IMG/VR virus record: IMGVR_UViG_3300044691_000566
Location: 64,001-128,000 of that record
Length of the DNA stretch: 64,000 nt
Source: a virus
Reading direction: 5' to 3' (one strand)
The notes beneath the pieces were generated by a model. It was not told the DNA's origin and ran no database searches. It saw nothing but the letters and a program-made list of their open reading frames with translations. Position numbers and translations under genes: made by a program. Positions 7,294 through 47,170 of this stretch are shown here, in pieces. Each line of letters begins with the position of its first letter. The first letter of the stretch is position 1.

Positions 7294-7398
7294 CACGAAG
7301 GCCCCCACCCGATATGGGTGGGGGCCTTCGTGTTGTTCCCCTGCCGTGCCCTGCCATGCCCAGCCTTGCCGCGCCGTGCCGAGGACTTGACTGTATCA
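7294..7398 (-). ncRNA. GGY-NN repeat small RNA unit A (orphan)
   Basis: minus strand TGATACAGTCAAGTCCTC + 8 GGC-NN (AC GC AA TG AT AG AC AG) + hairpin. Confidence 0.8.
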
Positions 7399-7470
7399 GG
7401 GGCAGAGGGGATTTGCTGGCGCTTCCGGCCCAACTGCCTGACCCGGATGGGGTATTCCTTCCCAAAAGTC

Positions 7471-7500
7471 TTGTCCTACCAAGAATAGTTGGAGTAGGGT
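7471..7500 (+). promoter_or_regulatory. sigma70-type promoter
   Basis: TTGTCC-N18-TAGGGT upstream of 7530 operon. Confidence 0.45.
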
Positions 7501-7529
7501 CAGGGGATCCCGCCATCCCGGAGGTACCG

Positions 7530-7712
7530 ATGGACACTGACGTCCCGCTGAGCGCCCTCCTCCAGAAGATCGATGCCGTTCTGCTCTCCCAGGGCACCGA
7601 CCCCGCGTCCATCTCCGACACCGACAAAATCATGCTCGCCGTGCAGTACGTGGAGATCGCCTTCTCCCGGGGACTCACCGTCGCGGCCCACCTGGAGATG
7701 TACCGCCTATGA
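7530..7712 (+). CDS. small hypothetical protein
   Basis: GGAGG RBS; ATGA overlap. Confidence 0.55.
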   Translation: MDTDVPLSALLQKIDAVLLSQGTDPASISDTDKIMLAVQYVEIAFSRGLTVAAHLEMYRL

Positions 7713-7915
7713 TCTGCGAATCCGTACACCCGCTCCGTCCGGACATGTTCTGCGACAAGGAGACCCCCTGCACCGGCTACCACGCCAACGCCGGGCACGG
7801 CCTGGTGTGGCCCCACGAAAAGGGCCTGCCGTCGGTCTCCCCGCCGCCGCAGAAGAAGGGGGCGGCCACCCGCAAGGTGCAGCTCGTCCAGATCGCCCGG
7901 CGCGCCCAGCGCTGA
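7709..7915 (+). CDS. small hypothetical protein
   Basis: overlapping operon packing. Confidence 0.5.
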   Translation: MICESVHPLRPDMFCDKETPCTGYHANAGHGLVWPHEKGLPSVSPPPQKKGAATRKVQLVQIARRAQR

Positions 7916-7939
7916 ACTCCCGCCAGAGAGGTTTTTAAA

Positions 7940-8521
7940 ATGCTCGCAGACTTCCAGATACGCAAAGCCGTCGAAGACTGCTGGATCAGCGTCAAGCCCT
8001 TCCGCGAGGAGCACCTCAACCCCGTCTCGCTCGACCTGACCCTCGGCAATACCGTCCGGACCGTCCGGCGCGATGTCCAGATCATCGACACCGCGATGGC
8101 CGACGTCGAGCCCAACACCACCTACTACGGATGCGTCCCCTCCTGGCACCCCCACACCGACGAGGGGGTCATCCACGCCGACGGCTACCACCTGCGCCCC
8201 CGCGAGTTCATCCTGGCCAGCACCGCCGAGCGCATCGAGCTGTCCTCGTTCATCGCCGCCCGGGTGGAGGGCAAGTCCTCCCTGGGCCGCCTGGGACTGC
8301 TGGTGCACGTGACCGCCGGATTCGTCGACCCCGGCTTCGAGGGCGAACTGACCCTGGAGATCGCCAATCTCTCCGACGTCACGCTTGTCCTGTACGCGGG
8401 CATGCGGGTCTGCCAGCTCACGTTCGAGACCGTCGAACCGCCCGAGCAGGACTACCGGCACACGGGCCGCTACCAGGGCCAGACCGGACCCACCGAGTCC
8501 CGGTACCGCCACATTCGCTGA
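7940..8521 (+). CDS. dcd: dCTP deaminase
   Basis: PVSLDLTLG, EGKSSLGRLGL, AGFVDPGFEGELTLEI, GMRVCQL, RYQGQ motifs. Confidence 0.93.
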   Translation: MLADFQIRKAVEDCWISVKPFREEHLNPVSLDLTLGNTVRTVRRDVQIIDTAMADVEPNTTYYGCVPSWHPHTDEGVIHADGYHLRPREFILASTAERIELSSFIAARVEGKSSLGRLGLLVHVTAGFVDPGFEGELTLEIANLSDVTLVLYAGMRVCQLTFETVEPPEQDYRHTGRYQGQTGPTESRYRHIR

Positions 8522-8550
8522 ACGCACGACGTCCTGCGCCGAGCGCACAC

Positions 8551-8649
8551 GACGAAGCCCCCTCCGGTGATCCGGAGGGGGCTTCTCCCTGCCATGCCCT
8601 GCGCTGCCATGCCGCGCCTCGCCATGCCGTGCAAGACCTGACTTTATCA
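8551..8649 (-). ncRNA. GGY-NN repeat small RNA unit B (orphan)
   Basis: TGATAAAGTCAGGTCT + 8 pentamers (AT GA GC AT AG AG AT AG; one CGC variant) + hairpin. Confidence 0.8.
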
Positions 8650-8680
8650 GTCCCATGGTTCTCCGATCGCCGCCGAATGC

Positions 8681-8714
8681 TGTCCTCCGGCACCCTCGGC
8701 CCCGGAAGAGGTGG
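8681..8714 (+). promoter_or_regulatory. putative late promoter TGTC-N21-AAGAGGTGG
   Basis: first of 14 copies with identical 21-nt spacing. Confidence 0.7.
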
Positions 8715-8723
8715 AGGACACAC

Positions 8724-10994
8724 GTGGACGAGGACGACGAGGGCTTCGAGCTGTGGCCGCAGGGCTGGCAGCCCGACACCCCTGTCCGCGAAACCATGCG
8801 GGAGCACCAGAAGGTGCACCGCAGTCCTTCACCGAGTGACCTCAAAGTCCGGCGGCGCAACCGCCGGACGACTGCTGGAGGAGACGTGCAGACACGCGCC
8901 CAACTCGTCCGCGCTCTGGGCAAGGCCGCGAGCCTGGCCGAGCAGGCGCGAATCGCCGACGAGATTGCCAAGATCGACAACGGCCTGCGCACCCAGGCCG
9001 CCCAGGACCGGGACCTGGATCTCGCCGACACCGTGGTCCGCGACACCCTCACCCCCGTGCGGGTCCACGAGCACCACACCGCCGCCACCGACTGGATGGG
9101 TGACGAGACCGCCCCCGACCCCCAGTGGCAGGCCAAGGTCGTCGCCGAGGCCGCCCTCTGGTACGGCCGCGTCCCCGACATGGTCAAGGAGGACCCGGAG
9201 GAGTACGCCATCCAGGCGCAGGGCATGGCCCGCCGCGTCGCCGGACCCTACGGCCTCCAGGCCGAGGCCGCCAAGACCGCGTTCTTGAGCTACGCCGCGT
9301 TCCTCCACCAGGGCGCCTCCGGCCTGGACCAGATCCAGCAGACCGTCGACCCCAGCAACGCACCGAAGACCACCCCGCTGCCGCCCGAGGTCTTCGACAA
9401 TTTTGCCCCCGAGGTCGACCCGATCAACGCGGGCGTCTCCGGCACCGAGACCTCCGAGCGCAACCCTCTCCTCCAGGAGATCGTCAACGGCGGCTCCGGC
9501 ATGGACGGCGGCGCCCCCGAAAAGCCCGGCGGCCACTCCGAGGGCAACGAGCTGTCCTGGAACCCCCCGTCCGGCATGCAGGCCGACACCGCCCCCGGCT
9601 GGTCCGACGGCGACCCCGGCGCCCCCGAGCAGGGCGGCAACCGCCCCGACTACACCAAGGCCGCCTCGCTCCGCTTCGTCCCCGGCATGGCCATCCAGCA
9701 CACGATGACCATGGACCAGTACCTCGCCGAACAGGCCAGCACCGCCCGCACTGCGAGCAAGGCCGCCAGCCTGGGAAAATGCGTCGGCTGCGGGACTGAC
9801 CTGTCGGTCGGGAACGCGGCCGACCGCGAGGGCAAGGTCTGCAAGGGTTGCGCCAAGACCGCCTCCAGGCGGCAGGCGGCCTCCGGGCTGCCGCAGATCC
9901 AGCAGACCGTGGACGCCGACAACCAGCCCTCCACCACCCCGCTGCCCCCGGAGGTCGCCTTCCCGCTGGACGACACCATGCAGCAGGAGTGGACCACCAA
10001 CGGCACCGGCAACGCGGCGCCCGGCGCCCCGCAGACCGCGCCCAAGGCCGCCAGGCGCAAGCAGGCCGACATGTGGGGCAACTCCGACGCCCCGCACGCC
10101 GTGGTCCAGCCCGACGTGGCCAACAACCCCACCACCACCCCGCCGACGGCCGCAGGCGCCGGGGGAGCGGCAGCGGGGAAGGCCGACGCCAACAGCGGGC
10201 AGGCCCCCACCTTTGCCGACAACTCCTCCTCCATCCCGGCCCCGGCCCAGCAGTACGCCGAGGGCTTCAGCGGCGTCGACCAGACCGCCAAAGCCCCCGC
10301 CGCCGACGTCCCCGCCTCCATGGCCGGACCCGGCAACGGCGTCACCCACGCGGGCACCAAGGTCTCCTCCCTGATCACCACCGCCGCCGAACGCGCCAAC
10401 ACCGACTTCAAGAAGGGCTACGGCTACGCCTCCCGGTGGACCCCGGGCACCCGCCTGGTCTCCACCGGCTCCAGCGAATTCGAAGCCGGACTGTACGCGG
10501 GCATCTCTGATAACCCCGGTTATCAGAAGGCGTTCGTGGAAGCCCACCGCGACGCGTCCACCGCCTTCCCCAAGATCGCCGCCCGCGTCGACCAGCACAA
10601 GCGCGTCACCGCCCGCGTCGTGGCCAACAACGAGGTCCCCTCCAACGGCCTCTATCTGCTGGCGTCCACCTCCATGGACCTCAACACCACCGCGCCCAAC
10701 ACCACCCCGGCCGCCGACGGCTCCACCCCCATCAACGGCCCCGGCCAGCCCGGCCCGCTCGCGGGGGAGCAGAACGCCGCAGCCCCCGGCGGACCGGCCC
10801 CCTACAACGGCGCCGAGCCCTACGGCACGCCGGTCGTCCCCGGCGCAGGACAGGCCCCTCAGGCGCCCAACCCGGCCGACGCCCTGGTCGGCGGTGGGGG
10901 AATGTCCACCGAGCAGCAGGTGATGGCGTCCCAGACCCTGGCCTTCCGCAAGCGCGTGCAGGCAACCCTGCTGGCCGAACGCCAGGGGAAGTGA
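8724..10994 (+). CDS. large putative head-associated protein (alternative start 8886)
   Basis: follows late motif; internal duplicated ASGLxQIQQTVD...TTPLPPEV; Pro/Ala/Gly-rich. Confidence 0.65.
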   Translation: MDEDDEGFELWPQGWQPDTPVRETMREHQKVHRSPSPSDLKVRRRNRRTTAGGDVQTRAQLVRALGKAASLAEQARIADEIAKIDNGLRTQAAQDRDLDLADTVVRDTLTPVRVHEHHTAATDWMGDETAPDPQWQAKVVAEAALWYGRVPDMVKEDPEEYAIQAQGMARRVAGPYGLQAEAAKTAFLSYAAFLHQGASGLDQIQQTVDPSNAPKTTPLPPEVFDNFAPEVDPINAGVSGTETSERNPLLQEIVNGGSGMDGGAPEKPGGHSEGNELSWNPPSGMQADTAPGWSDGDPGAPEQGGNRPDYTKAASLRFVPGMAIQHTMTMDQYLAEQASTARTASKAASLGKCVGCGTDLSVGNAADREGKVCKGCAKTASRRQAASGLPQIQQTVDADNQPSTTPLPPEVAFPLDDTMQQEWTTNGTGNAAPGAPQTAPKAARRKQADMWGNSDAPHAVVQPDVANNPTTTPPTAAGAGGAAAGKADANSGQAPTFADNSSSIPAPAQQYAEGFSGVDQTAKAPAADVPASMAGPGNGVTHAGTKVSSLITTAAERANTDFKKGYGYASRWTPGTRLVSTGSSEFEAGLYAGISDNPGYQKAFVEAHRDASTAFPKIAARVDQHKRVTARVVANNEVPSNGLYLLASTSMDLNTTAPNTTPAADGSTPINGPGQPGPLAGEQNAAAPGGPAPYNGAEPYGTPVVPGAGQAPQAPNPADALVGGGGMSTEQQVMASQTLAFRKRVQATLLAERQGK

Positions 10995-11004
10995 GGATTT
11001 CAAA

Positions 11005-12387
11005 ATGAGTGATCTGTGGACCGAGGCGTCCTACGACGCCGAGGCCGAATACCGGACCCGGAACCTGGAGATGGCCAAGCAGGCCAGCACCGGCATCTGG
11101 TCCTTCCTTGCCCTCGCCCAGTCCCCGCAGGAGTACGACGACCGGGTGGCCCTGGCCACCGACTCCATCACCGTGGCCGCCCACGCCTTCCAGGTCCCCG
11201 CCGACGACCTCCTGACGGTCTTCGCCCAGCGCTACGCCCTGCTGATGGAGGCCAAGGACAACCCCTTCGCCAACGATTCTCAGGACGACTCCGGGGACGA
11301 CTCCAAAGAATCCAAGGGCGACTCCCATGACGAGGACGACTCCCATGACGACTCTCATGACGACTCTCATGACGACTCCGATGACGACGAGAACGGCGAC
11401 GACACCGGAGACGGCGACGACGAAGACGACGACAAGGGCAACAAGGGCGACGGCGCCGACGACGTAGACGACCAGACCGACCCCGACGACGACGGCGACC
11501 AGGACAACGCCGACAACGACGACAAGGGCCAGTCCCAGGACCCCGACCAGGACGACGACGAGGCCAAGGGCACCACCCAGGGCATCTCCCCCTGGGGGAG
11601 CCGCTACGCCGCCCTGGCCCAGCGCATCGCAGCGGGCGAAAACCCGCTGGAATGGGGTGGTACCCCTTTCGTCGGTAGCCCCGCCCGCAAGCACGCGGCG
11701 GACGGGGCACCCGACACCCAGGCAGGCCCCGAAGGCCCCGCCGGACCCAACGAGCCCGCCCCGCCCGGAGAGCCCGGAACGGAACCCCCCACCGCCCCCG
11801 GCGGACCCGTCACGCCCCCGCAGGAGCCCCTCGTCCCCGGCATGAACGGCGGCATCGCCGAGACCACCAAACCCCGCCAGCTCCCCGCAGACGGCGGCAT
11901 GGACCCCACCACGGGCCCCGGCATGGGCATGGACGGCATCCCCGGCGAATTCAACCCCACCATGAACGGCGGCGACATCGAACAGGGAGCCGACAGCGGC
12001 CCCACCGCACCCGACGAAGCCCGCACCGCCAAACTCCGCACCATCACCGCCGAGGTCAAGCACTACAACCCCGCCCTCACCCCGGCCCAGTGCCACAACG
12101 TCGCCGTACGCGTCTACGAGCGGTACCTCCACAAGCACGCCGAGGACGTCAACCCGCTCCTGTACGGAGACCGGGGCCCCGTACCCGACGGGCCCCTCAC
12201 CGACGCCGTCAAAAAGTGGTCCCCCACCGACATGAAACCCCCCAAGACCACCCCCGGCATGCCCGGCGCAGCCCCCGGCGGATCAAGCACCCCCGGACTG
12301 CCCTCCGGAGGCGCGGGCGGAGGAGCAGGCGAACTGGCCGCCGGGGAAGGCACCGCCGCCGAACTCCTCCCCCTCCTGGCCCTGTAG
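11005..12387 (+). CDS. acidic/Pro-rich putative head protein
   Basis: long Asp-rich tract with DDSH repeats. Confidence 0.65.
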   Translation: MSDLWTEASYDAEAEYRTRNLEMAKQASTGIWSFLALAQSPQEYDDRVALATDSITVAAHAFQVPADDLLTVFAQRYALLMEAKDNPFANDSQDDSGDDSKESKGDSHDEDDSHDDSHDDSHDDSDDDENGDDTGDGDDEDDDKGNKGDGADDVDDQTDPDDDGDQDNADNDDKGQSQDPDQDDDEAKGTTQGISPWGSRYAALAQRIAAGENPLEWGGTPFVGSPARKHAADGAPDTQAGPEGPAGPNEPAPPGEPGTEPPTAPGGPVTPPQEPLVPGMNGGIAETTKPRQLPADGGMDPTTGPGMGMDGIPGEFNPTMNGGDIEQGADSGPTAPDEARTAKLRTITAEVKHYNPALTPAQCHNVAVRVYERYLHKHAEDVNPLLYGDRGPVPDGPLTDAVKKWSPTDMKPPKTTPGMPGAAPGGSSTPGLPSGGAGGGAGELAAGEGTAAELLPLLAL

Positions 12388-12391
12388 AGCC

Positions 12392-12880
12392 GTGATCAAC
12401 GACGGCTCCCGGGTCCGCTACACCGGCCACGAGGACGGCCCCCTGATTCGTGGGGACCAGGGCTCCGTCCTCGTGGCCTCCGGCCACGCCGCCCACGTCC
12501 AGTGGCGCACAGGAGCCCTCGCCGGACAGGTCACCCTCCACGACACCGACACCGACGACATCGAACCCCTCACCCCCCGCCAGGGCGCCGTGGAAGACGC
12601 CCTCGACGACTCCCTGGACGTCGAGGGCCTCGGCACCTTCACCGCCCGCCAGATCTACGACGAAGGCGGCTCAGAAGCCCTCCTCAACGCCATGGCCGAC
12701 GCCGGACGCCTCGCCGCCTTCCAGGAAATAGCCGAAGACGCCCTCGCCCTGGTCGCCGAACGCATACGCACCTCCGCCGCCTTCACCACCGTGGCCGTCC
12801 ACCTGGACGAAGACGAAGCCGACGAGATGGTCCGCCTGGCCGCCGCAGCCCTCATCCGGGACGCCTACCACACCCCCTGA
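12392..12880 (+). CDS. hypothetical protein
   Basis: ORF with strong C-ending codon bias. Confidence 0.6.
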   Translation: MINDGSRVRYTGHEDGPLIRGDQGSVLVASGHAAHVQWRTGALAGQVTLHDTDTDDIEPLTPRQGAVEDALDDSLDVEGLGTFTARQIYDEGGSEALLNAMADAGRLAAFQEIAEDALALVAERIRTSAAFTTVAVHLDEDEADEMVRLAAAALIRDAYHTP

Positions 12881-12923
12881 TGTCCACCACGCCCGATCTC
12901 CGCCGAAAGGTTGGAGGTGGACA

Positions 12924-14822
12924 GTGGCCAAGATCAGACTGTGTGACCGCTGCGGAGGAAGATCATCCCCGCACATTCCCCGGGAGCGCGTGGGCGACCA
13001 GATGCTCTGCCAGGGCTGCGCACACGCCGTCGCCCGCCAGCGCACCGCCACCACCCCCACCACCGACTTCTGGCCCGGCGAACACACCCCCGAGGGAACC
13101 CACCCCCTCCTCGCCCCGCTGCCCCCCTCCGTCTGGCGCCGCTACCACAGCACCCAGCACACCGCAGCCCCCGACGCCCCCGGCTACCCCAACCCGCACC
13201 ACCAGGAGATGCACGGCCCCGACAGCCCAGCCGCCCACGAGTGGTACCACGGCACCAGCACGTCCTTCGAAGGACCCCCCAAAAGCGCCACCGAACTCAT
13301 GAACGACCACCAGTACTGGGGCAACTTCGGAGCAGGCGACTGGAACAACCACATCGGCTCCCACTGGACGTCCCTCCACGGCATGGCCAAGGGCTTCCTC
13401 GCCGCCAGCAGCGCAGGCAACCGCGTCATCCACGCCAAGCTCCACATGAAAAACCCCGTCAAATACAACTCCCTGGACCACATGACGCACGACGCCTACG
13501 AGCGCCTGTCCGCCTCCGGGGACATGCAAGACGGCGGAGAACACGTCGGCAAACACCAGGACGACGCAGGAGACCACTCCTGCTGCTCCGGAGCCCTCCT
13601 GCGCTACGCCAAGGGCGAGCACCGCTCAGACGGCAAATACGGCCTGGAACGCTACCGCGACTCCCTGCGCGCCTCCGGCCACGACGGCATCCTCATGCGC
13701 AACAACACCGACGACCCGATCGGCCACTGGAACGCCATCCCCCTGTCCGCCGACCACATACAGATCACCAACAGCGGCTGCAACCGCCCCCACCACGACC
13801 CCCGCGACCACGACGACACCGAATTCGAAGACCACCGCAGCAAGCTCCTCGGGAACTGGCAGGAAGAAAAGCCCTACCACCCCGCCCAGTACACCCACGG
13901 CAAGCCCCTGCCCGGCCCCGGAACCGTCGACCACGCACACACGCAGAAGAAGGCCGACACCTTCCCCCACCTCCAGCCCCACCAGAACCGTCCAGACGCC
14001 GACCCCCACACCCACGGCGAAAACCTGGACGAACTGCACGAGGAGAACGAACCCTCCTTCGGCGGCGAATACTGCGCGCACTGCGACGACCTCACCGACC
14101 ACACCACCGAGCAGCACGGCAAAGAACACGACCTACGGCACCTGGAAACCGAACACGGCTACGGACCCGACCACTACCTGCACCACGCACTCCAGGAAAT
14201 GAGCCCGCAGGAAGTGGCCGACCACCACGAACACGAACACACCACCGACTTCCCCAGCGGCGACTTCCCCACCCATACGCACTTCCCGAAGGAGGCCCGT
14301 ATGGCCGGGGCCATGAACAAAACCGCCCACGACAGCGGCGACGGCGCCACCATCTTCCACTGCCCCTTCTGCGGCTCCGGCCAGGTCATCGCCCGCAGCG
14401 ACCGCACCACCGAGTGCGAGTACTGCCACGCCTGCTTCACCGTCCAGGTCCAGCCCCAATTCCCCGCATTCCCCCAGACCATCGACGGAATGCCCATGCA
14501 GGTCCCCGGCATGCCCGGCCAGATCGGCGGACCCCCCGCAGCACCCCCCGGCGCCGACGGCACCATGCCCCCCGGCCAGGACCCCATGGCCGACCCCATG
14601 AACGGCGGCATGCCCGGCGAAGAAGACCCCGCAGCCCAGGACGAGCAGGACCCCGCCGCCGAAGAAGACAGCGCACCCCCCTTCGCCAAGGGCTCCATGC
14701 TCCGCACCGCCAGCGGCACCCCCCTGGACTGGGACAACTACCTCCGCCACCTCGCCATCAGGCACGCCGACAACGACCAGCGAGACGCCGTGATCGAACG
14801 CGTCCGGGGAGAACGACGATGA
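12924..14822 (+). CDS. His-rich multidomain protein with ART-PolyVal-like domain and zinc ribbons
   Basis: WYHGTS...GSHWTS...LHMKNP...GHDGIL; CDRC, CPFC/CEYC. Confidence 0.6.
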   Translation: MAKIRLCDRCGGRSSPHIPRERVGDQMLCQGCAHAVARQRTATTPTTDFWPGEHTPEGTHPLLAPLPPSVWRRYHSTQHTAAPDAPGYPNPHHQEMHGPDSPAAHEWYHGTSTSFEGPPKSATELMNDHQYWGNFGAGDWNNHIGSHWTSLHGMAKGFLAASSAGNRVIHAKLHMKNPVKYNSLDHMTHDAYERLSASGDMQDGGEHVGKHQDDAGDHSCCSGALLRYAKGEHRSDGKYGLERYRDSLRASGHDGILMRNNTDDPIGHWNAIPLSADHIQITNSGCNRPHHDPRDHDDTEFEDHRSKLLGNWQEEKPYHPAQYTHGKPLPGPGTVDHAHTQKKADTFPHLQPHQNRPDADPHTHGENLDELHEENEPSFGGEYCAHCDDLTDHTTEQHGKEHDLRHLETEHGYGPDHYLHHALQEMSPQEVADHHEHEHTTDFPSGDFPTHTHFPKEARMAGAMNKTAHDSGDGATIFHCPFCGSGQVIARSDRTTECEYCHACFTVQVQPQFPAFPQTIDGMPMQVPGMPGQIGGPPAAPPGADGTMPPGQDPMADPMNGGMPGEEDPAAQDEQDPAAEEDSAPPFAKGSMLRTASGTPLDWDNYLRHLAIRHADNDQRDAVIERVRGERR

Positions 14823-15022
14823 CCGACACCCGCACCCTCTACGTCCTCGTGAACTACACCGACCACGCCGCCACCCACCAGCGCGGCGAATCCGTCCAGT
14901 TCACCACCGACGACCGCGAAGCCGACGAACTCCTGCGACGCGGCGTCCTCACCACCCACCCCGTACGCCGCCAAGCCGGAGAAAACTCCGCCCGCACCGA
15001 GCCGAAGGCCGACCAGACATGA
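14819..15022 (+). CDS. small hypothetical protein
   Basis: ATGA overlaps both sides. Confidence 0.55.
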   Translation: MTDTRTLYVLVNYTDHAATHQRGESVQFTTDDREADELLRRGVLTTHPVRRQAGENSARTEPKADQT

Positions 15023-25871: not shown

Positions 25872-26269
25872 CCACCGCCAAGGACGAGCCGGAGGACGGC
25901 GTCCCGCAGGGGATGCTCACGCCGCCCGAGGAGGGCACCGTCCCCTACGGCGGCAAGGGCCTCACCCTGAATGCAACCGGGGACGTCCACCCCTACCAGC
26001 TCATCGAAGAGATCTACCAGCGCCTGGGCGAGCGCGGCGACTACGAAGTGGTCGTCACCGAGTCCCACGACGGCAAACAGCGCTCCGTGCACGTCCTGGG
26101 CGATGCCGACCGGGCCGTCGTGCAGGGCGTCATCGACTCCCACGACCCCGACCCCGACTACGGCCTCAGCGCCGAGGAGCGCCGCATCCAGGACCTGAAG
26201 CACCAGTTGAAGAGCGGCGCCGACCTGTCCCCCCAGGACTTGAACACCCTGATGCGCGCCATGCTCTGA
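25862..26269 (+). CDS. hypothetical protein
   Basis: overlaps previous stop; followed by hairpin. Confidence 0.6.
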
Positions 26270-26270
26270 C

Positions 26271-26379
26271 GACGAAGGGGGCGGCCGGAGCCGCCCCCTT
26301 CTCCCTGCCATGCCCAGCCATGCCGCGCCATGCCTCACCTTGCCGTGCCAGGCCATGCCCCGAGGACTTGACTATATCA
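26271..26379 (-). ncRNA. GGY-NN repeat small RNA unit C (orphan)
   Basis: TGATATAGTCAAGTCCTCGG + 11 pentamers (AT CT AC AA GA AT GC AT TG AT AG) + hairpin. Confidence 0.82.
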
Positions 26380-37036: not shown

Positions 37037-37573
37037 TTAGCCCAAGTGGCCCCACCGGGCACCAGTGACGAGTCGGGAGATCGCGCCCTGGCCAACCCCG
37101 TAGACGGCGGCGAGAGCCCTCTGGCTTTCGCCGCCGTCGGCGTATCTGCGGCGTATCTCCAGAACCTGCCACTCCTCCAGCTTGGCGGCAGCGTTGCCTG
37201 ACCCTCGTGAAGAGGTGCCGTGCAGGATCTTGTCAGCTTCGTTCTCCCCAGAAGTGCCCCAGACGAGGTTCTCCTGCCGGTTGTCCGTAGAGTCACCGTT
37301 CAGGTGGCGCCCCTCCTGGCCCGGCTCCGGAAGACCCACAAAGGCCCCCAGGACGAGCTGGTGGACCAGGCGCTGGGCTCGGACACCGTCGATCGACATC
37401 ATGATGTTCAGGTAGCCCCCGCCGTGACGGCCGGGCTTGAGTATGCGGCCCTGGACGTAGTGCCGCCGGGTCTGGCGCGACAGACTGCGCACGCGGCCAA
37501 GCGACGACACCTCGTAGAACTCATCGAACTCCGGTATGGGGACCGGCTTCCACTCTTCAGTCATGCGAGGCAT
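37037..37573 (-). CDS. NUMOD4-HNH homing endonuclease
   Basis: EEWKPV...YEVSSLGRVRS, VHQLVLGAF, RHLNGDSTDNRQENLVWGT. Confidence 0.9.
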   Translation of the reverse strand: MPRMTEEWKPVPIPEFDEFYEVSSLGRVRSLSRQTRRHYVQGRILKPGRHGGGYLNIMMSIDGVRAQRLVHQLVLGAFVGLPEPGQEGRHLNGDSTDNRQENLVWGTSGENEADKILHGTSSRGSGNAAAKLEEWQVLEIRRRYADGGESQRALAAVYGVGQGAISRLVTGARWGHLG

Positions 37574-37609
37574 CTTGTAGTACAGGACTTGACATCGTCA
37601 ACTCCAAAC

Positions 37610-38182
37610 GAAGGCCCCCGGATTTAAAAATCCGGGGGCCGTTCCCCTGCCCAGCCATGCCACGCCCAGCCAAACCCCACCGTGCCGGGCCATACCATGA
37701 GGCCCTGACTCTATCATCTCCAACGACTGAGGGGCTCCCCGTAGGAAGCCCCTCCCATGCCTTGCCACGCCGAACCGGGCCCTGCCTTGCCCTGCCAGGG
37801 CATGCCAGGGCCTTGACCCTGTCATCTCCAATGGCACCTGTCAAACGACTGAGGGCGCCACCCCGAAGGATGACGCCCTCCCATGCCCCGCCTGGCCCTG
37901 CCAGACCTCGCCACGCCGAGCCTCGCCCAGCCCCGCAAGACCTGACTCTGTCATCCCTGCCCGCATCTGTCAAAGCTGAGGGCGATCACCCGTAGATGAT
38001 CGCCCTCCCATGCCCTGCCCGGCCAAGCCGAGCCGCGCCATGCCTAGCCCTGCAAGACCTGACTCTATCAGCCCCAATGACGAAGGGGCCCGAAGGACCC
38101 CTTCTCCCTGCCCTGCCCGGCCTAGCCCCACCGCGCCAGACCTTGCCCAGCCGTGCCTAGCCACGCGGCCCTGACTCTATCA
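37610..38182 (-). ncRNA. array of five GGY-NN repeat small RNA units (D1-D5)
   Basis: units 37610-37716, 37729-37824, 37851-37953, 37978-38070, 38082-38182; each -10 box + 8-11 pentamers + hairpin. Confidence 0.85.
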
Positions 38183-39247: not shown

Positions 39248-39260
39248 GAAGGGCGGACAG

Positions 39261-39605
39261 ATGACCGAGCAGGAGACCGGCCAGGTCCCCGAAGCCGTGG
39301 AGGACGACACCCCCGTGGCCTCCACGCACGTCCCGGACCCGACCGCCATGTCCGGCACCCTGGAGACCTCCGGGACCGGTGGGGGCCGCAACGAGCGCAT
39401 CACCGGCACCACCAACATCTTCGGCCGGATCGAGCGGGACATCGTCGCGGTGCGCAACGTCGTCCTCAAGGACGGCGAACGCGTCGTGGAGACGGTCGAG
39501 CACGTCCTGCGCAAGGAGCCCGACCCGCAGGAGGACGCCGGGAAGGCGACGGCGGCCGACGGCAAGCAGGCCGGGAAGACCACCCCGGCCGCCAAGAAGA
39601 AGTAG
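39261..39605 (+). CDS. hypothetical protein
   Basis: operon packing; shares SGTLE(T/S) with next gene. Confidence 0.55.
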   Translation: MTEQETGQVPEAVEDDTPVASTHVPDPTAMSGTLETSGTGGGRNERITGTTNIFGRIERDIVAVRNVVLKDGERVVETVEHVLRKEPDPQEDAGKATAADGKQAGKTTPAAKKK

Positions 39606-39629
39606 CCGAGCAGAGAGAGAGCAGCACCC

Positions 39630-41024: not shown

Positions 41025-41033
41025 TCCGGCCGC

Positions 41034-41068
41034 GAGGAGCCCCGTACACCGCGTACGGGGCTCCTCGT
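41034..41068 (+). terminator. hairpin terminator
   Basis: CGAGGAGCCCCGTAC/GTACGGGGCTCCTCG. Confidence 0.6.
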
Positions 41069-41161
41069 ACCGCTGCCGGTCGTCGCATCATGCGGTCCTG
41101 TCGGGCGCCCCCGGTCCCCCCGGAAGGGTTGAAGGCCACCACCCAGCGGATCGGGAGCGGA

Positions 41162-41809
41162 ATGTCCACCACCAGCCAGCACGTGGGATACAAGATCCCG
41201 GATGGGTCGGACCCCTTCCTGCGGACCGACTTCGTCCAGAACCTCAACCTCCAGGACCAGTACACGGGCGACTGGATCTGCACGAGCACCACCCGACCGG
41301 CCTGGGGCAGCGGCCAGGCGGGCATGAAGATCGTCGAGACGGACACCCGCCGCACCCTGATGTGGACCGGCACCACGTTCCGGGAGATGCTCTACGGCCC
41401 CGCCGTCTGGTGGGGCTCCATCCGCCCCAACGCGACCATCTCCCACGGCACGGTGGTGTCCTACACCGTCGGCACGTTCACCGTGAACCGCCCCGGCACG
41501 CTGCTCGGGTTCGCCAACACCGAGTACGCGATGCCCAACACCGGCTACATCGGCGCCTCCACCCGCGTCACCATCGACGGCGCGGTGGCGAGCTGGGACA
41601 CCTCCGGCGTCGACTTCATTGAGACCAACTTCCCCAGCGGCGGCACCGACTTCTGGGGCGTCACCATCCCGGCCATGGGCGTCCGCAACATATCCGCCGG
41701 AACCCACTCGGTCGGCATCCAGATCCTGGGCACCGTCACCGGCACCAACACCCTCAAGATCGTCTCCAACCGCACGCTGGCCATGTTCGTCAACGCGACC
41801 GACCGCTAG
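41162..41809 (+). CDS. putative minor tail/fibre protein
   Basis: TSTTRPAW...GMKIVETDT motif; after late motif. Confidence 0.55.
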   Translation: MSTTSQHVGYKIPDGSDPFLRTDFVQNLNLQDQYTGDWICTSTTRPAWGSGQAGMKIVETDTRRTLMWTGTTFREMLYGPAVWWGSIRPNATISHGTVVSYTVGTFTVNRPGTLLGFANTEYAMPNTGYIGASTRVTIDGAVASWDTSGVDFIETNFPSGGTDFWGVTIPAMGVRNISAGTHSVGIQILGTVTGTNTLKIVSNRTLAMFVNATDR

Positions 41810-41818
41810 GACCGCCAC

Positions 41819-42688
41819 ATGGCGCTCTTCTGGAACGACCGGCAGTACGTCTCCCAGTACGCGGTGGACGTGGTGGGCATCCACCTGCTCCGCAACCAGG
41901 TCCCGGTGGACGCCGACTCCGGCGTCGCCCTCACCATGGTCTCGGAGAACACCGGCAGCGAGGTCTTCTCCCGCGCCGCCACCCACAACGCGACCGGCGA
42001 CTACTCGGCGTCGTTCAACAGCGTGGAGACCTCTGTCCCCGGGTCCTACACGCTGGCGTGGACCTACGTCCTGACCGGGCAGCCGGAGTACCTGGAGTCC
42101 GGCATCGAGGTCGGCCCGGCTGCCCCCTCGTACGACAATCTCGCGCCGGGGATGAAGGACATCGTGGAGGGGGTCATGATCCGCATCGCGGACACCATCG
42201 ACTCCCCGGGCGGTGGCCCGAATTTGTTGACATATGTCCAGAGCAAGTTCGGCCGGGGCCGGATCGCCGAGCTGATGCGGATCGCCCTGGGCCGCCTCAA
42301 CACGGTCGCCCAGCCCCATCAGACCTACACCCTGGACGGCAATGGGGGCGCCACCTTCCCCTTCGCCCAGTGGGGTCCGCTGCTGGAGGCCGTGACCTGG
42401 GCGGAGACGCTCAAGCATCTGATCCGCAGCTACAACGAGCAGCCGAACTTCATCGGCTCCGGCAACATCTCCCGCCTGGACCGCCGGGACTACGTCCAGC
42501 GCTGGCGCGACTCCCTCATGGACGAGGAGGCCGCGATCAAGGGGCAGCTCGATGTCTTCAAGATCGCGTCCATGGGCCTGGGCCGACCGGCTGTGCTGAT
42601 TTTCGGGGGCGTCTATGGTCGGTACGGGCCCACTCGCATGTCGGGTAGCGTGGCCGCGCGGCCCCGTTACTGGACGAGATTCTACTAA
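41819..42688 (+). CDS. putative head-tail adaptor/neck protein
   Basis: synteny; helical C-half. Confidence 0.5.
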   Translation: MALFWNDRQYVSQYAVDVVGIHLLRNQVPVDADSGVALTMVSENTGSEVFSRAATHNATGDYSASFNSVETSVPGSYTLAWTYVLTGQPEYLESGIEVGPAAPSYDNLAPGMKDIVEGVMIRIADTIDSPGGGPNLLTYVQSKFGRGRIAELMRIALGRLNTVAQPHQTYTLDGNGGATFPFAQWGPLLEAVTWAETLKHLIRSYNEQPNFIGSGNISRLDRRDYVQRWRDSLMDEEAAIKGQLDVFKIASMGLGRPAVLIFGGVYGRYGPTRMSGSVAARPRYWTRFY

Positions 42689-42815
42689 AACCGGACATTA
42701 CGGCCATGATAGGGTCAGGTCCTGCAAGGCACGGCAGGGCTAGGCGAGGTCTGGCAGGGTACGGCTGGGCACGGCAGGGGGAGGGCGATCACCTACGGGT
42801 GGTCGCCCTCCGTTG

Positions 42816-42931
42816 TTGACAGATCCAGTAGGACATGACAGAGTCAAGTCGTCCTCATTCACCTGGGGCGGGCGTCGGTCGATCCGTGGTGCTCCCTTTC
42901 GCAACAAGGGCACGGATTGACCGACGTCTTT
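42816..42931 (+). ncRNA. putative non-repeat structured sRNA driven by the same promoter type
   Basis: TTGACA-N17-CAGAGT then 18-bp stem 42871-42888/42911-42928. Confidence 0.45.
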
Positions 42932-43090
42932 GTACTCCCGTCGGTAACCCTGATAGAGTCAAGTCCTCGGCACGGCTAGGTAGGGCAGGGTTTGGTAGGG
43001 CAGGGAGAAGGGGTCCTCTACGGAGGACCCCTTCGTTTTGCCCCCGCAGGCCCGGTAGAGTCCGGCCTCCACCGTCAGAGAGGACCCTCA

Positions 43091-43300
43091 ATGCCCGACA
43101 GCGAGATCATCAGGGACTGGTACACCTCCAGCGCCTGCGGGGCGAACAACTCCTGCCTGGAGGCCCGCACTTACGCCGACGGGTCGGTCGAGATCCGCAA
43201 CTCCCAGGACCCGAAGGGCACCCTCCTCCGGTTCACCGAGGACGAATGGTCCGCCTTCCTCGTGGGCGCCCGCGCCGGGGAGTTTTCCACCGGGGCATGA
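43091..43300 (+). CDS. DUF397 family protein
   Basis: WYTSSAC..NSCLEA...VEIRNSQDP..LRFT..EWSAFL.G...GEF. Confidence 0.85.
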   Translation: MPDSEIIRDWYTSSACGANNSCLEARTYADGSVEIRNSQDPKGTLLRFTEDEWSAFLVGARAGEFSTGA

Positions 43301-43402
43301 CCTGATAGAGTCAAGTCCTCGGCTAGGCATGGCGGGGCTCGGCTTGGCACGGCAGGGAGAAGGGGTCCACTACGGTGGACCCCTTCGTCGTTGGGAGGAC
43401 GG

Positions 43403-43582
43403 ATGCGCATCGGTCAGGAGCCGCCCCGGCGGGAGAAGCTGCGGGGCTACGTGATCACCGGCTGCATCAAGTGCGGCGGCCGGTCCAAGTGGATCCGGCG
43501 TGGACCGCACGACTGCTGCTTGCGCAAGGACATGAGCCGGGCCCGGGAGAAGCAGGAATGGCGCCGGACCCTCAGGGATTGA
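43403..43582 (+). CDS. small basic Cys-containing protein
   Basis: GGAGG RBS; CIKC; stop overlaps unit E4 promoter. Confidence 0.5.
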   Translation: MRIGQEPPRREKLRGYVITGCIKCGGRSKWIRRGPHDCCLRKDMSRAREKQEWRRTLRD

Positions 43583-43928
43583 TAGAGTCAAGTCCCTGGC
43601 AAGGCTGGCCAAGGCCCGGTAGGGCACGGCTTGGCCCGGCAGGGCAGGGAGAAGAGCCCCACTACGGTGGGGCTCTTCGTCGTTGACGGACCCCGCAGTT
43701 CATGACAGAGTCAAGTCCTGCATGGCCGGGCGGGACGTGGCGCGGTGTGGCATGGCTAGGTAGGGCCGGGCAGGGCATGGGCTGTGGAGATGGGGCCTCT
43801 TTCGGGAGGCCCCATCGTCTTGATAGAGTCAAGTCCCTGGCTGGGCTTGGTATGGCTGGGCTTGGCGTGGTGAGGCATGGCAGGGGGAGAGGGCCCGGAT
43901 TTTTAAATCCGGGCCCTCCGCCATATGG

Positions 43929-43958
43929 TTGACACTCCAGGAATCCTTGGAGTACAGT
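43929..43958 (+). promoter_or_regulatory. sigma70-type promoter of RAMP-like gene
   Basis: TTGACA-N18-TACAGT. Confidence 0.7.
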
Positions 43959-43996
43959 CACCTTCGCCAGAGAACGCCGAGCCCCAGGGAGGGCCC

Positions 43997-44575
43997 ATGC
44001 AGGTCCGTTTGACTCTTACCGGAACCACATCGCTGCTCATGCACAACGCGCGGCTGTCCGACCCGTTGGACCCCTACACCAAGATGCTCAAGGCCATCTC
44101 CTCCAAGCGCACCAAGACGGAGGACGACCACGACGACATGGCGCGCGTCGAATTCCTCGGCGGCCTGTACTTCGACCCGGAGGCCGGGCCGTACGTTCCC
44201 GGCGTCAACGTCCACCGCTGCCTGGTGGAGGGCGCCAAGCTCAACAAGCTGGGCCGCCACGTGGAGCGCGGCATCATCGCCCTGGACGAGATCTGCCCGC
44301 TGGGCTACGCGGGGCCGCGCACGGAGGAGGCGCTGTGGAAGGACAAAAACTTCGTCTCCCGGCTGTCCGTCGGCGTCACCACCTCGCGCGTCATGCGCAC
44401 GCGCCCCGAATTCCCGGTGTGGGGCCTGGAGGCCGACATGCTGGTGGACACCGGCCAGCTCGACCTGGAGCAGGTCCGCACCATCGCCGAGAAGTCCGGA
44501 CAGATGATCGGTCTCGGCGACTACCGTCCCCGGTTCGGGCGATTCACCGTCGAGGTCGTCGAACTCCAGGGCTGA
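43997..44575 (+). CDS. RAMP/Cas7-like RRM protein, putative effector of the GGY-NN RNAs
   Basis: N-terminal strand LTLTGTTSLLMHN, PYVPGVNVHRCL (cf. RAMP IPGSxxKG), C-terminal G-rich loop GLGDYRPRFGRF. Confidence 0.7.
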   Translation: MQVRLTLTGTTSLLMHNARLSDPLDPYTKMLKAISSKRTKTEDDHDDMARVEFLGGLYFDPEAGPYVPGVNVHRCLVEGAKLNKLGRHVERGIIALDEICPLGYAGPRTEEALWKDKNFVSRLSVGVTTSRVMRTRPEFPVWGLEADMLVDTGQLDLEQVRTIAEKSGQMIGLGDYRPRFGRFTVEVVELQG

Positions 44576-44614
44576 TCCCGCCAGAATCTGTACCACCGAA
44601 CAGAAGGAGGACGA

Positions 44615-45178
44615 ATGGCCGCCAAGCCGTTCGAGCCCAAGGGCGATGTCGCCCGCTGGGTCCCCGTCTACGAGAATCTGCGCGACCTGGAGCCGGGGGT
44701 GCTGGTCACGTACGAGCAGCTCTCGGAGTGGGCCGGAGTCGATGTCCGGCGCGACCGCAGCCCCCTCGTGCAGGCCGAGGACAAGCTCCTGAAGGAGCAC
44801 GGGCGCGGCGTCGCCAACGAGCGGGGCGTGGGGTACCGGATCATGCTGGCCTCCGAACACGGTGAGGCCGCCCGGCGCCAGACCCGGAAGGCCGACCGCC
44901 GGATCAGGAAGGCCATAACCCTTCTGACCGTGGCCGACCGCAATCACCTGACCCCGCAGCAGCGGCAGAAGTACGAGAGTCAGGCCGGGGCTCTCCAGGC
45001 CGTCCGGGACATGACCAACCGCCTGGCGCGGCGGACGGCCGCGCTGGAGGAGGGTCTGAAAGCGGTCCGTCGGGAGACCAAGGAGACCACGGCCGGTCTG
45101 TCCGACCGCTTGGAGCGGCTGGAGGCCCGGTTCGCGAACGTTCCGGGCGATGCCCCGGCGGACAGCACCACGACCTGA
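44615..45178 (+). CDS. winged-HTH-like + coiled-coil protein co-transcribed with RAMP-like gene
   Basis: VTYEQLSEWAG...NERGVGYRI; long amphipathic helix. Confidence 0.6.
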   Translation: MAAKPFEPKGDVARWVPVYENLRDLEPGVLVTYEQLSEWAGVDVRRDRSPLVQAEDKLLKEHGRGVANERGVGYRIMLASEHGEAARRQTRKADRRIRKAITLLTVADRNHLTPQQRQKYESQAGALQAVRDMTNRLARRTAALEEGLKAVRRETKETTAGLSDRLERLEARFANVPGDAPADSTTT

Positions 45179-45193
45179 TAAGGTCACCCCCAT

Positions 45194-45211
45194 CGGGATT
45201 TTAAAATCCCG
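45194..45211. promoter_or_regulatory. perfect palindrome CGGGATTTTAAAATCCCG
   Basis: 18-bp palindrome; core recurs about 9 times in window. Confidence 0.55.
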
Positions 45212-45309
45212 CACAGACGACAGGCCCGTTCATGGGGAACGGGCCTGTCGTCATGTCCGGAGTCCTCCAAGCCCGGCGAAGAGGTGAAACCGCACCTCTG
45301 GAGGACGTC

Positions 45310-47082
45310 GTGCCGTACACCGTCACCCTCAACCCCGGGCTGGTCGATGTGGCGCTGCCCGGCGGCGTCCTGGCCCAGGGCAGCCACTCCTACACCTTGA
45401 CGGACGAGCAGTTCCTGATGCTGAGCCCCACGGCCGCAGCAGTGCTGTTCTCCGCCTCCGGCCAGACCGGCGGGGGCTCGGCCTGGTCGATCGACCCCAC
45501 CGCCTACGGCGCCAAGGGGGACGGCAAGATCGTCACCGACGGCGCCATGACCTCCGGGTCCGCTGTCCTGACTTGCGCCACGTCGACCCCTTTCGTCTCG
45601 GCGGATGCCACCGCAGGCAAGCTGGTCATGGTCAAGGGCGCCGGGCCCAACGGCGTGACCTGCCTGATCACCACGGTCAAGACCTTCACCGACTCCGGGC
45701 ACGTGGTGCTCAACGCCAGCGCCGCCACCACGATCAGCAACGCCCTGGTCATGTGGGCCACGGACGACACGGTGGCCTTCCAGGCGGCCATCGACGCCGC
45801 CGTGGCGTACGGCCTGGCGCACAGCTACACCGCGACCATCAAGGTCCCGGCGGCCACCGGCCGGTTCTACGGCATCGGCGGGGCCCTGAAGACCGGCGGC
45901 GCCACCAAGGGCAACAGCCAGCTCACGCTGCCGGTGGTGCCCACCACCGGGGACAAGCTGACCATCGTCTTCGACGGTCCGGGGGACAGCTCCGCCGTGC
46001 AGCACTGGCAGCAGCTCGTCCCGCAGACCGGCGGCGCCACCCTGGTCAGCTTCTTCGTGCACGCCTCGTCGTCGGCGCAGATCACCAGCATCAACAACGG
46101 CGGCAACTCCGCTGTCATCGGCGGCCCGTCCCAGCCGGGCGGCTTCGGCGTCAACCCGGGCGTCTACACCAACGTCAACGCGGTCTTCCGCAACCTCTCG
46201 ATCCTGACCAGCCACAGCGCCTTCGGCCTGACCCTGAGCGCGCTGGACCTGTCCGGCATCGCCAACGCCAGCCTGGAGAACTTCGCCTACGGCACCGCCG
46301 GATCGGTCACCGGCACCGACTACGTGAGTCCCGGGGTCTTCGCGACGGGCCTGTCCATCGGCCTGTTGATGCCCGCCTCCGGCAACAACGACAACTGCGT
46401 GGTCCGCAATGTGACCTGTCACGGCGGGTTCACGTACGGGTTTTTCGCCACCGAGCACTGCGACATCTCCGCGATGCGCATCCTGTACTGCTGGGCGGCC
46501 TTCTGCCCGGTCGGCACCTACTACAGCTCGGTCGGCTCCACGCACGCCATCGTCGCCACCAATCTGAGCATCGAGTCGTGCACCTACGTCCTCTACGTCA
46601 TCGGCGCGGGCGGTGGCGGCCTGGGGCCCTTCCTGCACCTGAGGATCGACACGGAGACCTCCACCCCCCGGTTCGGCGACAACAACGGTGGTGTCGGCCT
46701 GGCCGCCGCACGCGGGGACGTCTACCTGAGCGGCCTCTACACGGCGGCGTCGCTGACCCTGGACAACCCGGTGGGCTTCGACATCATCGACGGCCAGCGG
46801 TCCTACCCGGTGATCTCGGTCGCGGCCAACTACGCCGTGCTGACCACCGACGAGGTGATCCAGGTGGACTGCACGGCAGCCGCCCGGACCGTCACGCTGC
46901 CGACGGCCGTGGGCCGCAACCGCCGGATCCTGATCACCAAGATCGACTCCAGTGCCAACGCGGTGGTCGTCGCCACCACGGGGGGACAGACCGTCAACGG
47001 TGCTGCCCCGGCGACCATCACCGGTCAGTGGACCTCGAAGGAGTACTTCCCCACCCCGGCCGGGGTATGGATCGCCCGATGA
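45310..47082 (+). CDS. second tail spike/fibre with beta-helix domain
   Basis: DPTAYGAKGDG, DDTVAFQAAIDAA; C-terminal VTLPTA...KIDSSAN fibre motif. Confidence 0.75.
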   Translation: MPYTVTLNPGLVDVALPGGVLAQGSHSYTLTDEQFLMLSPTAAAVLFSASGQTGGGSAWSIDPTAYGAKGDGKIVTDGAMTSGSAVLTCATSTPFVSADATAGKLVMVKGAGPNGVTCLITTVKTFTDSGHVVLNASAATTISNALVMWATDDTVAFQAAIDAAVAYGLAHSYTATIKVPAATGRFYGIGGALKTGGATKGNSQLTLPVVPTTGDKLTIVFDGPGDSSAVQHWQQLVPQTGGATLVSFFVHASSSAQITSINNGGNSAVIGGPSQPGGFGVNPGVYTNVNAVFRNLSILTSHSAFGLTLSALDLSGIANASLENFAYGTAGSVTGTDYVSPGVFATGLSIGLLMPASGNNDNCVVRNVTCHGGFTYGFFATEHCDISAMRILYCWAAFCPVGTYYSSVGSTHAIVATNLSIESCTYVLYVIGAGGGGLGPFLHLRIDTETSTPRFGDNNGGVGLAAARGDVYLSGLYTAASLTLDNPVGFDIIDGQRSYPVISVAANYAVLTTDEVIQVDCTAAARTVTLPTAVGRNRRILITKIDSSANAVVVATTGGQTVNGAAPATITGQWTSKEYFPTPAGVWIAR

Positions 47083-47084
47083 CC

Positions 47085-47170
47085 TGATAGAGTCAGGGCC
47101 TCGGTATGGCTGGGCCGGGCTCGGCTGGTCGGGGCATGGCAGGGGAGGCCCCCACTTCGGTGGGGGCCTC
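47085..47170 (+). ncRNA. GGY-NN repeat small RNA unit F (orphan)
   Basis: TGATAGAGTCAGGGCCTC + 8 pentamers (AT TG CG TC TG GG AT AG; one GTC variant) + hairpin. Confidence 0.8.

What the first reader, a model, noticed from the sequence alone, without database searches (positions are those of the whole stretch)
7294..47170. Dinucleotide code of the 15 units; targets should be sought with gapped patterns
NN strings read 5'-3'. A: AC GC AA TG AT AG AC AG. B: AT GA GC AT AG AG AT AG. C: AT CT AC AA GA AT GC AT TG AT AG. D1: AT CC AC GG TT TG GT AT TG AG. D2: AT CT AG AA AG CC TC GT AA AT. D3: TG GA TC GT GA CT AG CA GG AT. D4: TA AT GC TC TT CG AG AT. D5: TA AC TG AA CT GC GG TA CG AG AG. E1: AC AG TA GA CT AG AC TG AC AG. 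E2: AC TA AG AG TT AG AG. E3: TA AT GG TC TT AC AG. E4: AA TG AA CC AG AC TT CC AG AG. E5: CG GG GT GC GT AT TA AG CG AG AT. E6: TG TT AT TG TT GT GA AT AG. F: AT TG CG TC TG GG AT AG. All 15 strings differ. The last NN is always AG or AT, suggesting a structural 3' anchor. The NN positions are far more AT-rich than the genome, which would fit promoter-like targets. The 5-nt register is kept even through GGY substitutions (CGC, GCC, GAC, GTC).
Basis: partly seen in the sequence, partly recalled or inferred. Interest (0 to 1): 0.85.

Follow-up and report, generated by a model that had tools for sequence, protein, structure and literature searches.

The report
Phage VIPR guide RNAs, gapped code
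The 15 five-base-repeat units are guide-RNA genes of a VIPR system (a CRISPR-like, phage-borne RNA-guided DNA silencer first described in 2026), so the kind of system is already known, but five guides can be matched to Streptomyces and rival-phage genes, which is new detail.

Summary
All 15 NN strings, the AG/AT last dinucleotide, the kept 5-nt register and the AT-rich NN positions were reproduced. The whole 159.7-kb phage genome holds 20 such units.

Each unit is an extended -10 promoter, 7-11 GGY-NN pentamers and a strong covarying hairpin tail. A 192-aa gene (window 43997-44575) is the conserved neighbour of such arrays in unrelated viral contigs. It matches PDB 36pp, "SUSP1 Vipr protein" (E 4.6e-40), folds like Cas7/Csm3, and is followed by a vap1-like gene. 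This is a type II-like VIPR system (bioRxiv 10.64898/2026.04.26.720920), so the kind is already published. This scan has also found VIPR loci before on other DNA.

For unit E5, on the same 41 Streptomyces genomes, a 1-nt gap hit 30 genomes, and gaps of 0 and 2 hit none.

Predicted targets, all inside coding sequence at conserved motifs:
- sub-telomeric ttrA-like helicase (E5)
- DinG helicase of pPIWI-RE defence islands (E4)
- XRE/ImmA regulator (E6)
- N6/N4 DNA methylase (D1)
- Ro60-like genes of other phages (D5)

The promoter-target idea is not supported. There are no self-targets.

The parts
8545..8649 (-). vrRNA gene vr03 (B), 8 pentamers; lies after the dCTP-deaminase-like gene
26265..26379 (-). 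vrRNA gene vr04 (C), 11 pentamers; no target found (0/121 Streptomyces genomes; one hit in a 42% GC viral contig, at the 0-1 level of the other no-target guides)
37603..37716 (-). vrRNA gene vr05 (D1), 10 pentamers; best target is the HITQKPV motif of N6/N4 DNA methylase genes in Streptomyces (16-17 of 18 NN bases)
37720..37824 (-). vrRNA gene vr06 (D2), 10 pentamers; no target above control
37840..37953 (-). vrRNA gene vr07 (D3), 10 pentamers; no exact hit in IMG/VR
37970..38070 (-). vrRNA gene vr08 (D4), 8 pentamers; not tested outside (too short to be specific)
38074..38182 (-). vrRNA gene vr09 (D5), 11 pentamers; 9 NN match exactly in 18 viral contigs, always at YTWNLAGYR of a Ro60/TROVE-like gene
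42707..42820 (+). vrRNA gene vr10 (E1), 10 pentamers; a single hit in a 46% GC viral contig, at the 0-1 level of the other no-target guides
42836..42950 (+). Same promoter motif followed by about 100 nt with no pentamer array; role unknown
42951..43040 (+). vrRNA gene vr11 (E2), 7 pentamers, rich in GGT
43303..43392 (+). vrRNA gene vr12 (E3), 7 pentamers
43580..43685 (+). vrRNA gene vr13 (E4), 10 pentamers; its 8 variable NN match MGNVLGFQ in the DinG-type helicase gene of pPIWI-RE defence islands
43703..43821 (+). vrRNA gene vr14 (E5), 11 pentamers; 9 NN match RLYMTATPR (SF2 motif III) of sub-telomeric ttrA-like helicase genes
43821..43923 (+). vrRNA gene vr15 (E6), 9 pentamers; 7 NN match an HTH_3 + Peptidase_M78 (XRE/ImmA-like) gene in 3/101 Streptomyces genomes
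43997..44575 (+). vipr: 192-aa RAMP/Cas7-like protein with its own TTGACA-17-TACAGT promoter
44615..45178 (+). vap1-like accessory gene (187 aa, phrog_5926)
47085..47178 (+). vrRNA gene vr16 (F), 8 pentamers; its promoter overlaps the stop codon of the upstream gene

Best explanation
This is a type II-like VIPR (Viral Interference Programmable Repeat) system of a 160-kb phage that probably infects Streptomyces. Twenty small genes, 15 of them in the window, each carry their own extended -10 promoter. Each should give an RNA of about 90-105 nt made of 7-11 GGY-NN pentamers followed by a hairpin tail. By homology with the solved SUSP1 system, Vipr protomers (window 43997-44575) polymerise along the RNA. 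They bury each GGY and present each NN. The NN then pair with double-stranded DNA in which every third base is skipped, which blocks transcription. The vap1-like gene next door assists. What is shown here: the anatomy, the homology, the gap-1 rule with this phage's own guides, and five predicted target families in foreign DNA with none in the phage itself. What is inferred from the literature: expression of the RNAs, RNP assembly and silencing.
For: Units and promoter motif lie far above chance. The tail hairpin has 9 of 12 pairs with compensatory changes and folds strongly. In loci picked only by the array pattern, homologues of the 192-aa protein lie 0-520 bp from arrays in 43 loci by direct BLAST. 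By clustering the figure is 94 of 121 loci. PDB 36pp 'SUSP1 Vipr protein' matches at E 4.6e-40. The AF2 model has pLDDT 95.6 and its top Foldseek hits are Csm3/Cas7. The vap is homologous to the gene that follows vipr in phages wV8 and LittleE. Gap test. Targets: vr14 hits 144/301 genomes against 1 control site, vr13 gives 24 sites against 4, vr05 gives 23 against 1, vr15 gives 3 against 0, all in the same gene, and vr09 gives 18 viral contigs against 0-1 for five other guides. There is no self-target above shuffled controls, and the phage has no homologue of three of the target genes that were tested (Ro60-like, helicase, XRE/ImmA).
Against: There are no expression or binding data for this phage. 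No target was found for vr01, vr04, vr06, vr07, vr10 and vr18 in the samples searched. Nine guides were not tested outside the phage at all: seven are too short to be specific, and vr19 and vr20 were simply not reached. vr05 always keeps at least one mismatch. Arrays here have 7-11 repeats, the short ones below the published 9-16. The tail is a plain hairpin, not the pseudoknot reported for the SUSP1 clade. Matches to very conserved motifs may not all be intended targets.
Confidence: 0.9

Rival explanations
1. It is a real VIPR system, but it serves only competition between mobile elements. On this view the hits in defence, methylase and ttrA genes arise because such genes also ride on plasmids, prophages and integrated elements, and the phage does not use VIPR to disarm the host.
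For: Published natural targets are satellites, prophages and rival VIPR systems. ttrA also sits on linear plasmids. The XRE/ImmA target lies about 3.5 kb from a ttrA-like helicase inside two chromosomes, which looks like one integrated element. vr09 clearly aims at other phages.
Against: The vr13 site lies in a complete pPIWI-RE island of REase, DinG helicase and PIWI. I saw no mobile-element genes in the 15 kb read, but I did not search for them systematically.
Confidence: 0.35
2. The arrays are binding sites for a ring-shaped RNA-binding protein, as TRAP binds 11 triplets with 2-nt spacers. They would act as attenuator leaders or as protein sponges, and NN would carry no information.
For: The period is 5 nt with a fixed triplet, there are about 8-12 repeats, a terminator-like hairpin follows, and some units lie just before a ribosome-binding site. 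This was my first idea.
Against: Units A-C are antisense to their neighbouring genes, so they cannot be leaders. The partner protein is a Cas7-like Vipr, not a TRAP-like ring. NN strings match foreign genes only at a gap of 1, which a spacer without meaning would not do.
Confidence: 0.02
3. The arrays act at the DNA level, as protein-binding iterons, G-quadruplex or R-loop elements, or promoter-terminator insulators, and have no RNA function.
For: The G-rich strand with GG every 5 nt could form two-tier quadruplexes, and the units sit in intergenic gaps.
Against: The promoter-array-hairpin order is constant whatever the direction of the neighbouring genes. The tail stem shows compensatory changes. 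In the homologous SUSP1 system the RNAs are expressed and co-purify with Vipr.
Confidence: 0.02

Closest known systems
Type II VIPR of Escherichia phage SUSP1 and the Pseudomonas fulva prophage (bioRxiv 10.64898/2026.04.26.720920, .720927 and 10.64898/2026.10.15.759431; PDB 36pp)
   Same: A Vipr homologue is present (E 4.6e-40 to 36pp; about 39% identity to Felixounavirus copies). A vap1-like gene follows it. The guide RNAs are GGY-NN repeats with a structured 3' tail. Targets fit the 1-nt skip rule on either strand. There are no self-targets. Targets are conserved coding motifs with the wobble base skipped.
   Different: The host clade differs: a high-GC actinophage (the main text of the first VIPR paper has no occurrence of Streptomyces or actinomycetes). 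There are 20 guides spread over 8 places across about 93 kb, against four at the SUSP1 locus. Every guide has its own extended -10 promoter and a plain terminator-like hairpin. Some arrays have only 7-8 repeats. The predicted targets include chromosomal ttrA-like, pPIWI-RE and methylase genes.
Cas7/Csm3 backbone of class 1 CRISPR-Cas effectors
   Same: The RAMP fold is shared (Foldseek E 9e-6, TM about 0.5). The protein polymerises on a guide RNA, and base pairing is interrupted at regular intervals.
   Different: There is no CRISPR array, no other cas gene and no adaptation module. The period is 5 nt with only 2 pairing bases, against 6 nt with 5 pairing bases. The guides are separate genes.
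TRAP (trp RNA-binding attenuation protein) and its triplet-repeat leader
   Same: An RNA with a fixed triplet and a 2-nt spacer repeated about 11 times.
   Different: There is no TRAP-like protein. The spacers carry information. The units are not leaders.
Telomeric type I-E CAST spacers that match ttrA in Streptomyces (bioRxiv 10.1101/2024.11.13.623437)
   Same: A mobile element carries an RNA guide that matches the sub-telomeric ttrA helicase gene.
   Different: That case is a CRISPR-guided transposon that homes to telomeres. This case is a phage VIPR guide that presumably silences the gene.

Membership tests
VIPR system | A Vipr protein: a small stand-alone RAMP homologous to the characterised Vipr | tested here: met
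   phmmer against PDB 36pp_D 'SUSP1 Vipr protein' gives E 4.6e-40 over residues 4-188. The AF2 model has pLDDT 95.6 and its top hits are Csm3/Cas7. The protein falls in phrog_4652.
VIPR system | vrRNA genes made of tandem GGY-NN (YNNGG) pentamers with hypervariable NN and a conserved structured 3' tail | tested here: met
   There are 20 units with 7-11 pentamers and all NN strings differ. The tail hairpin shows compensatory changes. The short units fall below the published range of 9-16.
VIPR system | A minimal locus: vipr next to a vap accessory gene, flanked by guide genes, with no CRISPR array or other cas genes | tested here: met
   The vap1-like gene at 44615-45178 is homologous to wV8 gp94 (E 5e-6) and LittleE gp33 (E 8e-15). 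Six guides lie upstream and one downstream. I ran no dedicated cas-gene or CRISPR-repeat search; the tandem-repeat scan and the gene map of the window showed neither.
VIPR system | Targets follow the 1-nt skip rule with at least 80% NN match, and there is no self-targeting | tested here: met
   vr14: gap 1 hits 30/41 genomes (28 of 46 sites perfect), and gaps 0 and 2 hit 0/41. vr09, vr13, vr15 and vr05 match at 89-100% of their variable NN. The own genome scores no better than shuffled guides. A gap of 3 was not tested outside the phage.
VIPR system | vrRNAs are expressed, bind Vipr and silence transcription of the target | not testable with these tools
   Known only for SUSP1 and P. fulva.
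CRISPR-Cas | A repeat-spacer array plus cas1/cas2 or an effector module | tested here: not met
   There is no repeat-spacer array. The only Cas-like protein is the lone RAMP.
TRAP-type attenuation | A TRAP-fold ring protein, and arrays placed as cis leaders | tested here: not met
   The array's conserved partner protein is a Cas7-like RAMP, not a TRAP-fold ring; I did not scan the genome for the TRAP family itself. Units A-C are antisense to their neighbouring genes.

The most novel reading that the evidence does not exclude
This phage may use part of its 20-guide VIPR repertoire as a programmable anti-host tool rather than only against rival mobile elements. One guide would silence the DinG helicase of pPIWI-RE (Argonaute-like) defence islands. 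One would silence a DNA methylase. One would silence the ttrA helicase found at the ends of most Streptomyces linear replicons. Each guide is written on an invariant protein motif, so synonymous changes cannot give escape.
Probability: 0.35. Interest if true: 0.7.

Novelty: new member of a known kind. Interest (0 to 1): 0.45.

Why it matters
The kind of system is already published, so the finding itself is not a discovery. It does give an independent computational confirmation of the 1-nt skip rule in a distant, high-GC host clade. It shows a phage with an unusually large and dispersed guide set. It also proposes concrete, testable targets: ttrA at Streptomyces telomeres, a pPIWI-RE defence helicase, a DNA methylase, an XRE/ImmA switch regulator, and Ro60-like genes of other actinophages. 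If the defence-gene guide works, VIPR would also be an RNA-guided anti-defence mechanism.

Tried and rejected
- Rfam has no family for the units.
- BLAST of the E cluster against 50,697 phage records found nothing.
- My first idea, a TRAP-like ring-protein leader or sponge, was dropped after the Vipr match and the gap-1 targets.
- Self-targeting: none.
- Guides against 204 other VIPR-bearing loci: none.
- Convergence of many guides on the telomere-proximal 20 kb of 20 replicons: only vr14 hit, plus single hits of vr15 and vr02.
- No target was found for vr04 (0/121 genomes; one hit in a 42% GC viral contig, at the 0-1 background seen for the other guides), vr06 (2 sites against 2 in the control), vr07, vr01 and vr18 (0 exact in IMG/VR), or vr10 (one hit in a 46% GC contig, same background).
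- The first genome-contig scan with a wide alignment failed for lack of a conserved stretch. It was repeated with closer sequences.
- The tRNA-like look of the LittleE tails was not confirmed by ARAGORN or Rfam.
Full report
**Observation.**
The window is 64-71% G+C. It is part of a single 159,746-bp viral record with terminal repeats. Parsing from the conserved upstream motif gave 20 units in the genome, 15 of them in the window. Shuffled genomes give 0-4 short runs. The motif TGATAGAGTCARG occurs 16 times against 0.96 expected, and 15 of the 16 sit at arrays. The last NN is AG or AT in all 20 units. The variable NN are 58% A+T against 33% for the genome.

**Anatomy.**
On the strand that reads GGY-NN, every unit has the same order:
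- TG-n-TAGAGT, an extended -10 box;
- about 7-10 nt;
- 7-11 pentamers;
- GGGAGAAG or a variant;
- a 10-17-bp G+C-rich hairpin;
- a short T-containing run.

Across the 15 window units the hairpin sequence differs but the pairing is kept: 9 of 12 pairs show compensatory changes. Units A-C lie antisense between + strand genes, so they are independent genes and not leaders. D1-D5 and E1-E6 are tandem sets.

**Partner protein, found without the literature.**
A pattern of eight GGY-NN units hit at least 120 IMG/VR contigs of 39-72% G+C, many with tandem arrays. All-against-all BLAST of the ORFs in those loci gave one dominant cluster, present in 94 of 121 loci. It contains the ORF at window 43925-44575. 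Its direct homologues lie 0-520 bp from an array in 43 loci. The true start is 43997, giving 192 aa with its own promoter and ribosome-binding site. Pfam has nothing for it, and PHROGs places it in phrog_4652 of unknown function. Homologues occur in 130 phage records, including Felixounavirus, Mycobacterium phage LittleE, Gordonia and Pseudomonas phages. They also occur in 93 loci of bacterial genomes. In wV8 and LittleE the gene is again flanked by GGY-NN arrays.

**Identification.**
The protein matches PDB 36pp chain D, "SUSP1 Vipr protein", at E 4.6e-40. The AlphaFold model (pLDDT 95.6) resembles Csm3/Cas7 of type III and type VII CRISPR effectors. Three 2026 preprints describe VIPR:
- It consists of Vipr plus vrRNAs of alternating GGY and NN, with an adjacent vap gene.
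- Vipr filaments hide the GGY and present the NN.
- Double-stranded DNA is read with every third base skipped.
- There is no PAM, and either strand can be read.
- The outcome is transcriptional silencing.
- Natural targets are satellites, prophages and rival VIPR systems.

The gene after vipr here is homologous to the one after vipr in wV8 and LittleE. The locus is therefore type II-like.

The phage genome itself gives no match better than shuffled guides. An earlier first-stage note had read one guide as a helicase motif, so I tried vr14 (E5) first. With a 1-nt gap and up to 3 mismatches in 22 bases it hit 144 of 301 Streptomyces genomes, about 196 sites, against one site for the reversed pattern. 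Every listed site encodes RLYMTATPR.

On the same 41 genomes the nine variable NN gave these results:

| Gap | Genomes hit | Sites |
|---|---|---|
| 0 | 0/41 | 0 |
| 1 | 30/41 | 46 (28 perfect) |
| 2 | 0/41 | 0 |

Many sites lie 1-6 kb from both ends of complete linear chromosomes. The gene carries ResIII/DEAD, Helicase_C and HA domains. That is the architecture and place of ttrA, the conjugation helicase found at most Streptomyces replicon ends. Orthology to the studied TtrA was not tested directly. A related phage fragment (L001) carries a guide that shares six consecutive NN with vr14. No other of 420 foreign arrays shares more than four.

**Other guides.**

| Guide | Hits | Control | Site and gene |
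|---|---|---|---|
| vr15 (E6) | 3/101 genomes | 0 | Homologous HTH_3 + Peptidase_M78 gene; twice about 3.5 kb from a ttrA-like site |
| vr13 (E4) | 24 sites | 4 | 13 sites are one site, MGNVLGFQ, inside a 1164-1230-aa PprDinG helicase flanked by the REase and PIWI genes of a pPIWI-RE defence island; all eight variable NN perfect in five genomes |
| vr05 (D1) | 23 sites | 1 | About 17 sites at HITQKPV of an N6/N4 DNA methylase; best match 17 of 18 bases; gene identity checked in two loci only |
| vr09 (D5) | 18 IMG/VR contigs, exact 9-NN match | 0-1 for five other guides | All at YTWNLAGYR near the end of a TROVE/Ro60-like, vWA protein (phrog_850) |

The phage has no homologue of the Ro60-like, helicase or XRE/ImmA genes. 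In all cases the skipped base is the codon wobble position. Mismatches cluster in the last one or two NN, which are near-constant and so belong to the handle.

**Limits.**
Only 11 guides could be tested, on samples of 40-300 genomes or by exact match only. Six gave nothing. A gap of 3 was not tested outside the phage. The host is inferred from the targets and from a DUF397 gene. Whether the defence, methylase and ttrA matches mean anti-host silencing, or competition with elements that carry such genes, is open. An earlier claim of this type in the scan partly fell on later checking. The scan has found VIPR loci on other DNA several times.

Noticed in passing
window 42836-42950 (+): The vrRNA-type promoter motif is followed here by about 100 nt with no pentamer array, between E1 and E2. 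It could be another small RNA or a decayed unit.
   Followed up: no
genome 144301 (-), outside the window (window coordinate about 80301): The same promoter motif directly precedes a ribosome-binding site and a protein-coding gene, so the motif is not exclusive to guide RNAs.
   Followed up: no
genome 9947-52257 (-), and window 43929-43965 and 7440-7500: A second conserved promoter type recurs at least nine times, including in front of vipr. It has TTGAC(G/A), a conserved spacer with a CCAAGGATT-like core, and a TAG/TAC -10 box. It looks like an operator-bearing phage promoter class.
   Followed up: no
L123 (Mycobacterium phage LittleE, NC_042322) 2669-2860 and 4160-4440: Arrays flank vipr and vap inside the tail gene block. 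Their tails contain GGTTCGAGTCC-like, T-arm-like sequences. ARAGORN and Rfam call nothing there. The annotated gp35 overlaps two arrays and may be spurious.
   Followed up: partly
window 37037-37573 (-): A NUMOD4 + HNH_3 homing-endonuclease gene lies directly downstream of the D1-D5 guide cluster, next to the major capsid gene.
   Followed up: partly
window 42992-43300 and 43391-43582 (+): Small genes are interleaved with the E guides: a DUF397 protein, which is a Streptomyces-typical family, and a 63-aa Cys-rich ORF.
   Followed up: partly
L233/L240/L248 (genome G016, chromosome 4.99-5.27 Mb): Four ttrA-like helicase sites lie deep inside one Streptomyces chromosome, next to ThiF-family and XRE/ImmA genes. 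This may be an integrated linear plasmid or other element.
   Followed up: partly
L227 (G299 contig 2, a 407-kb replicon) 18608: There is a perfect 7-NN gap-1 match of vr02 (A) inside a phage-integrase-family gene. It is a single hit from a short guide, so its significance is unclear.
   Followed up: partly
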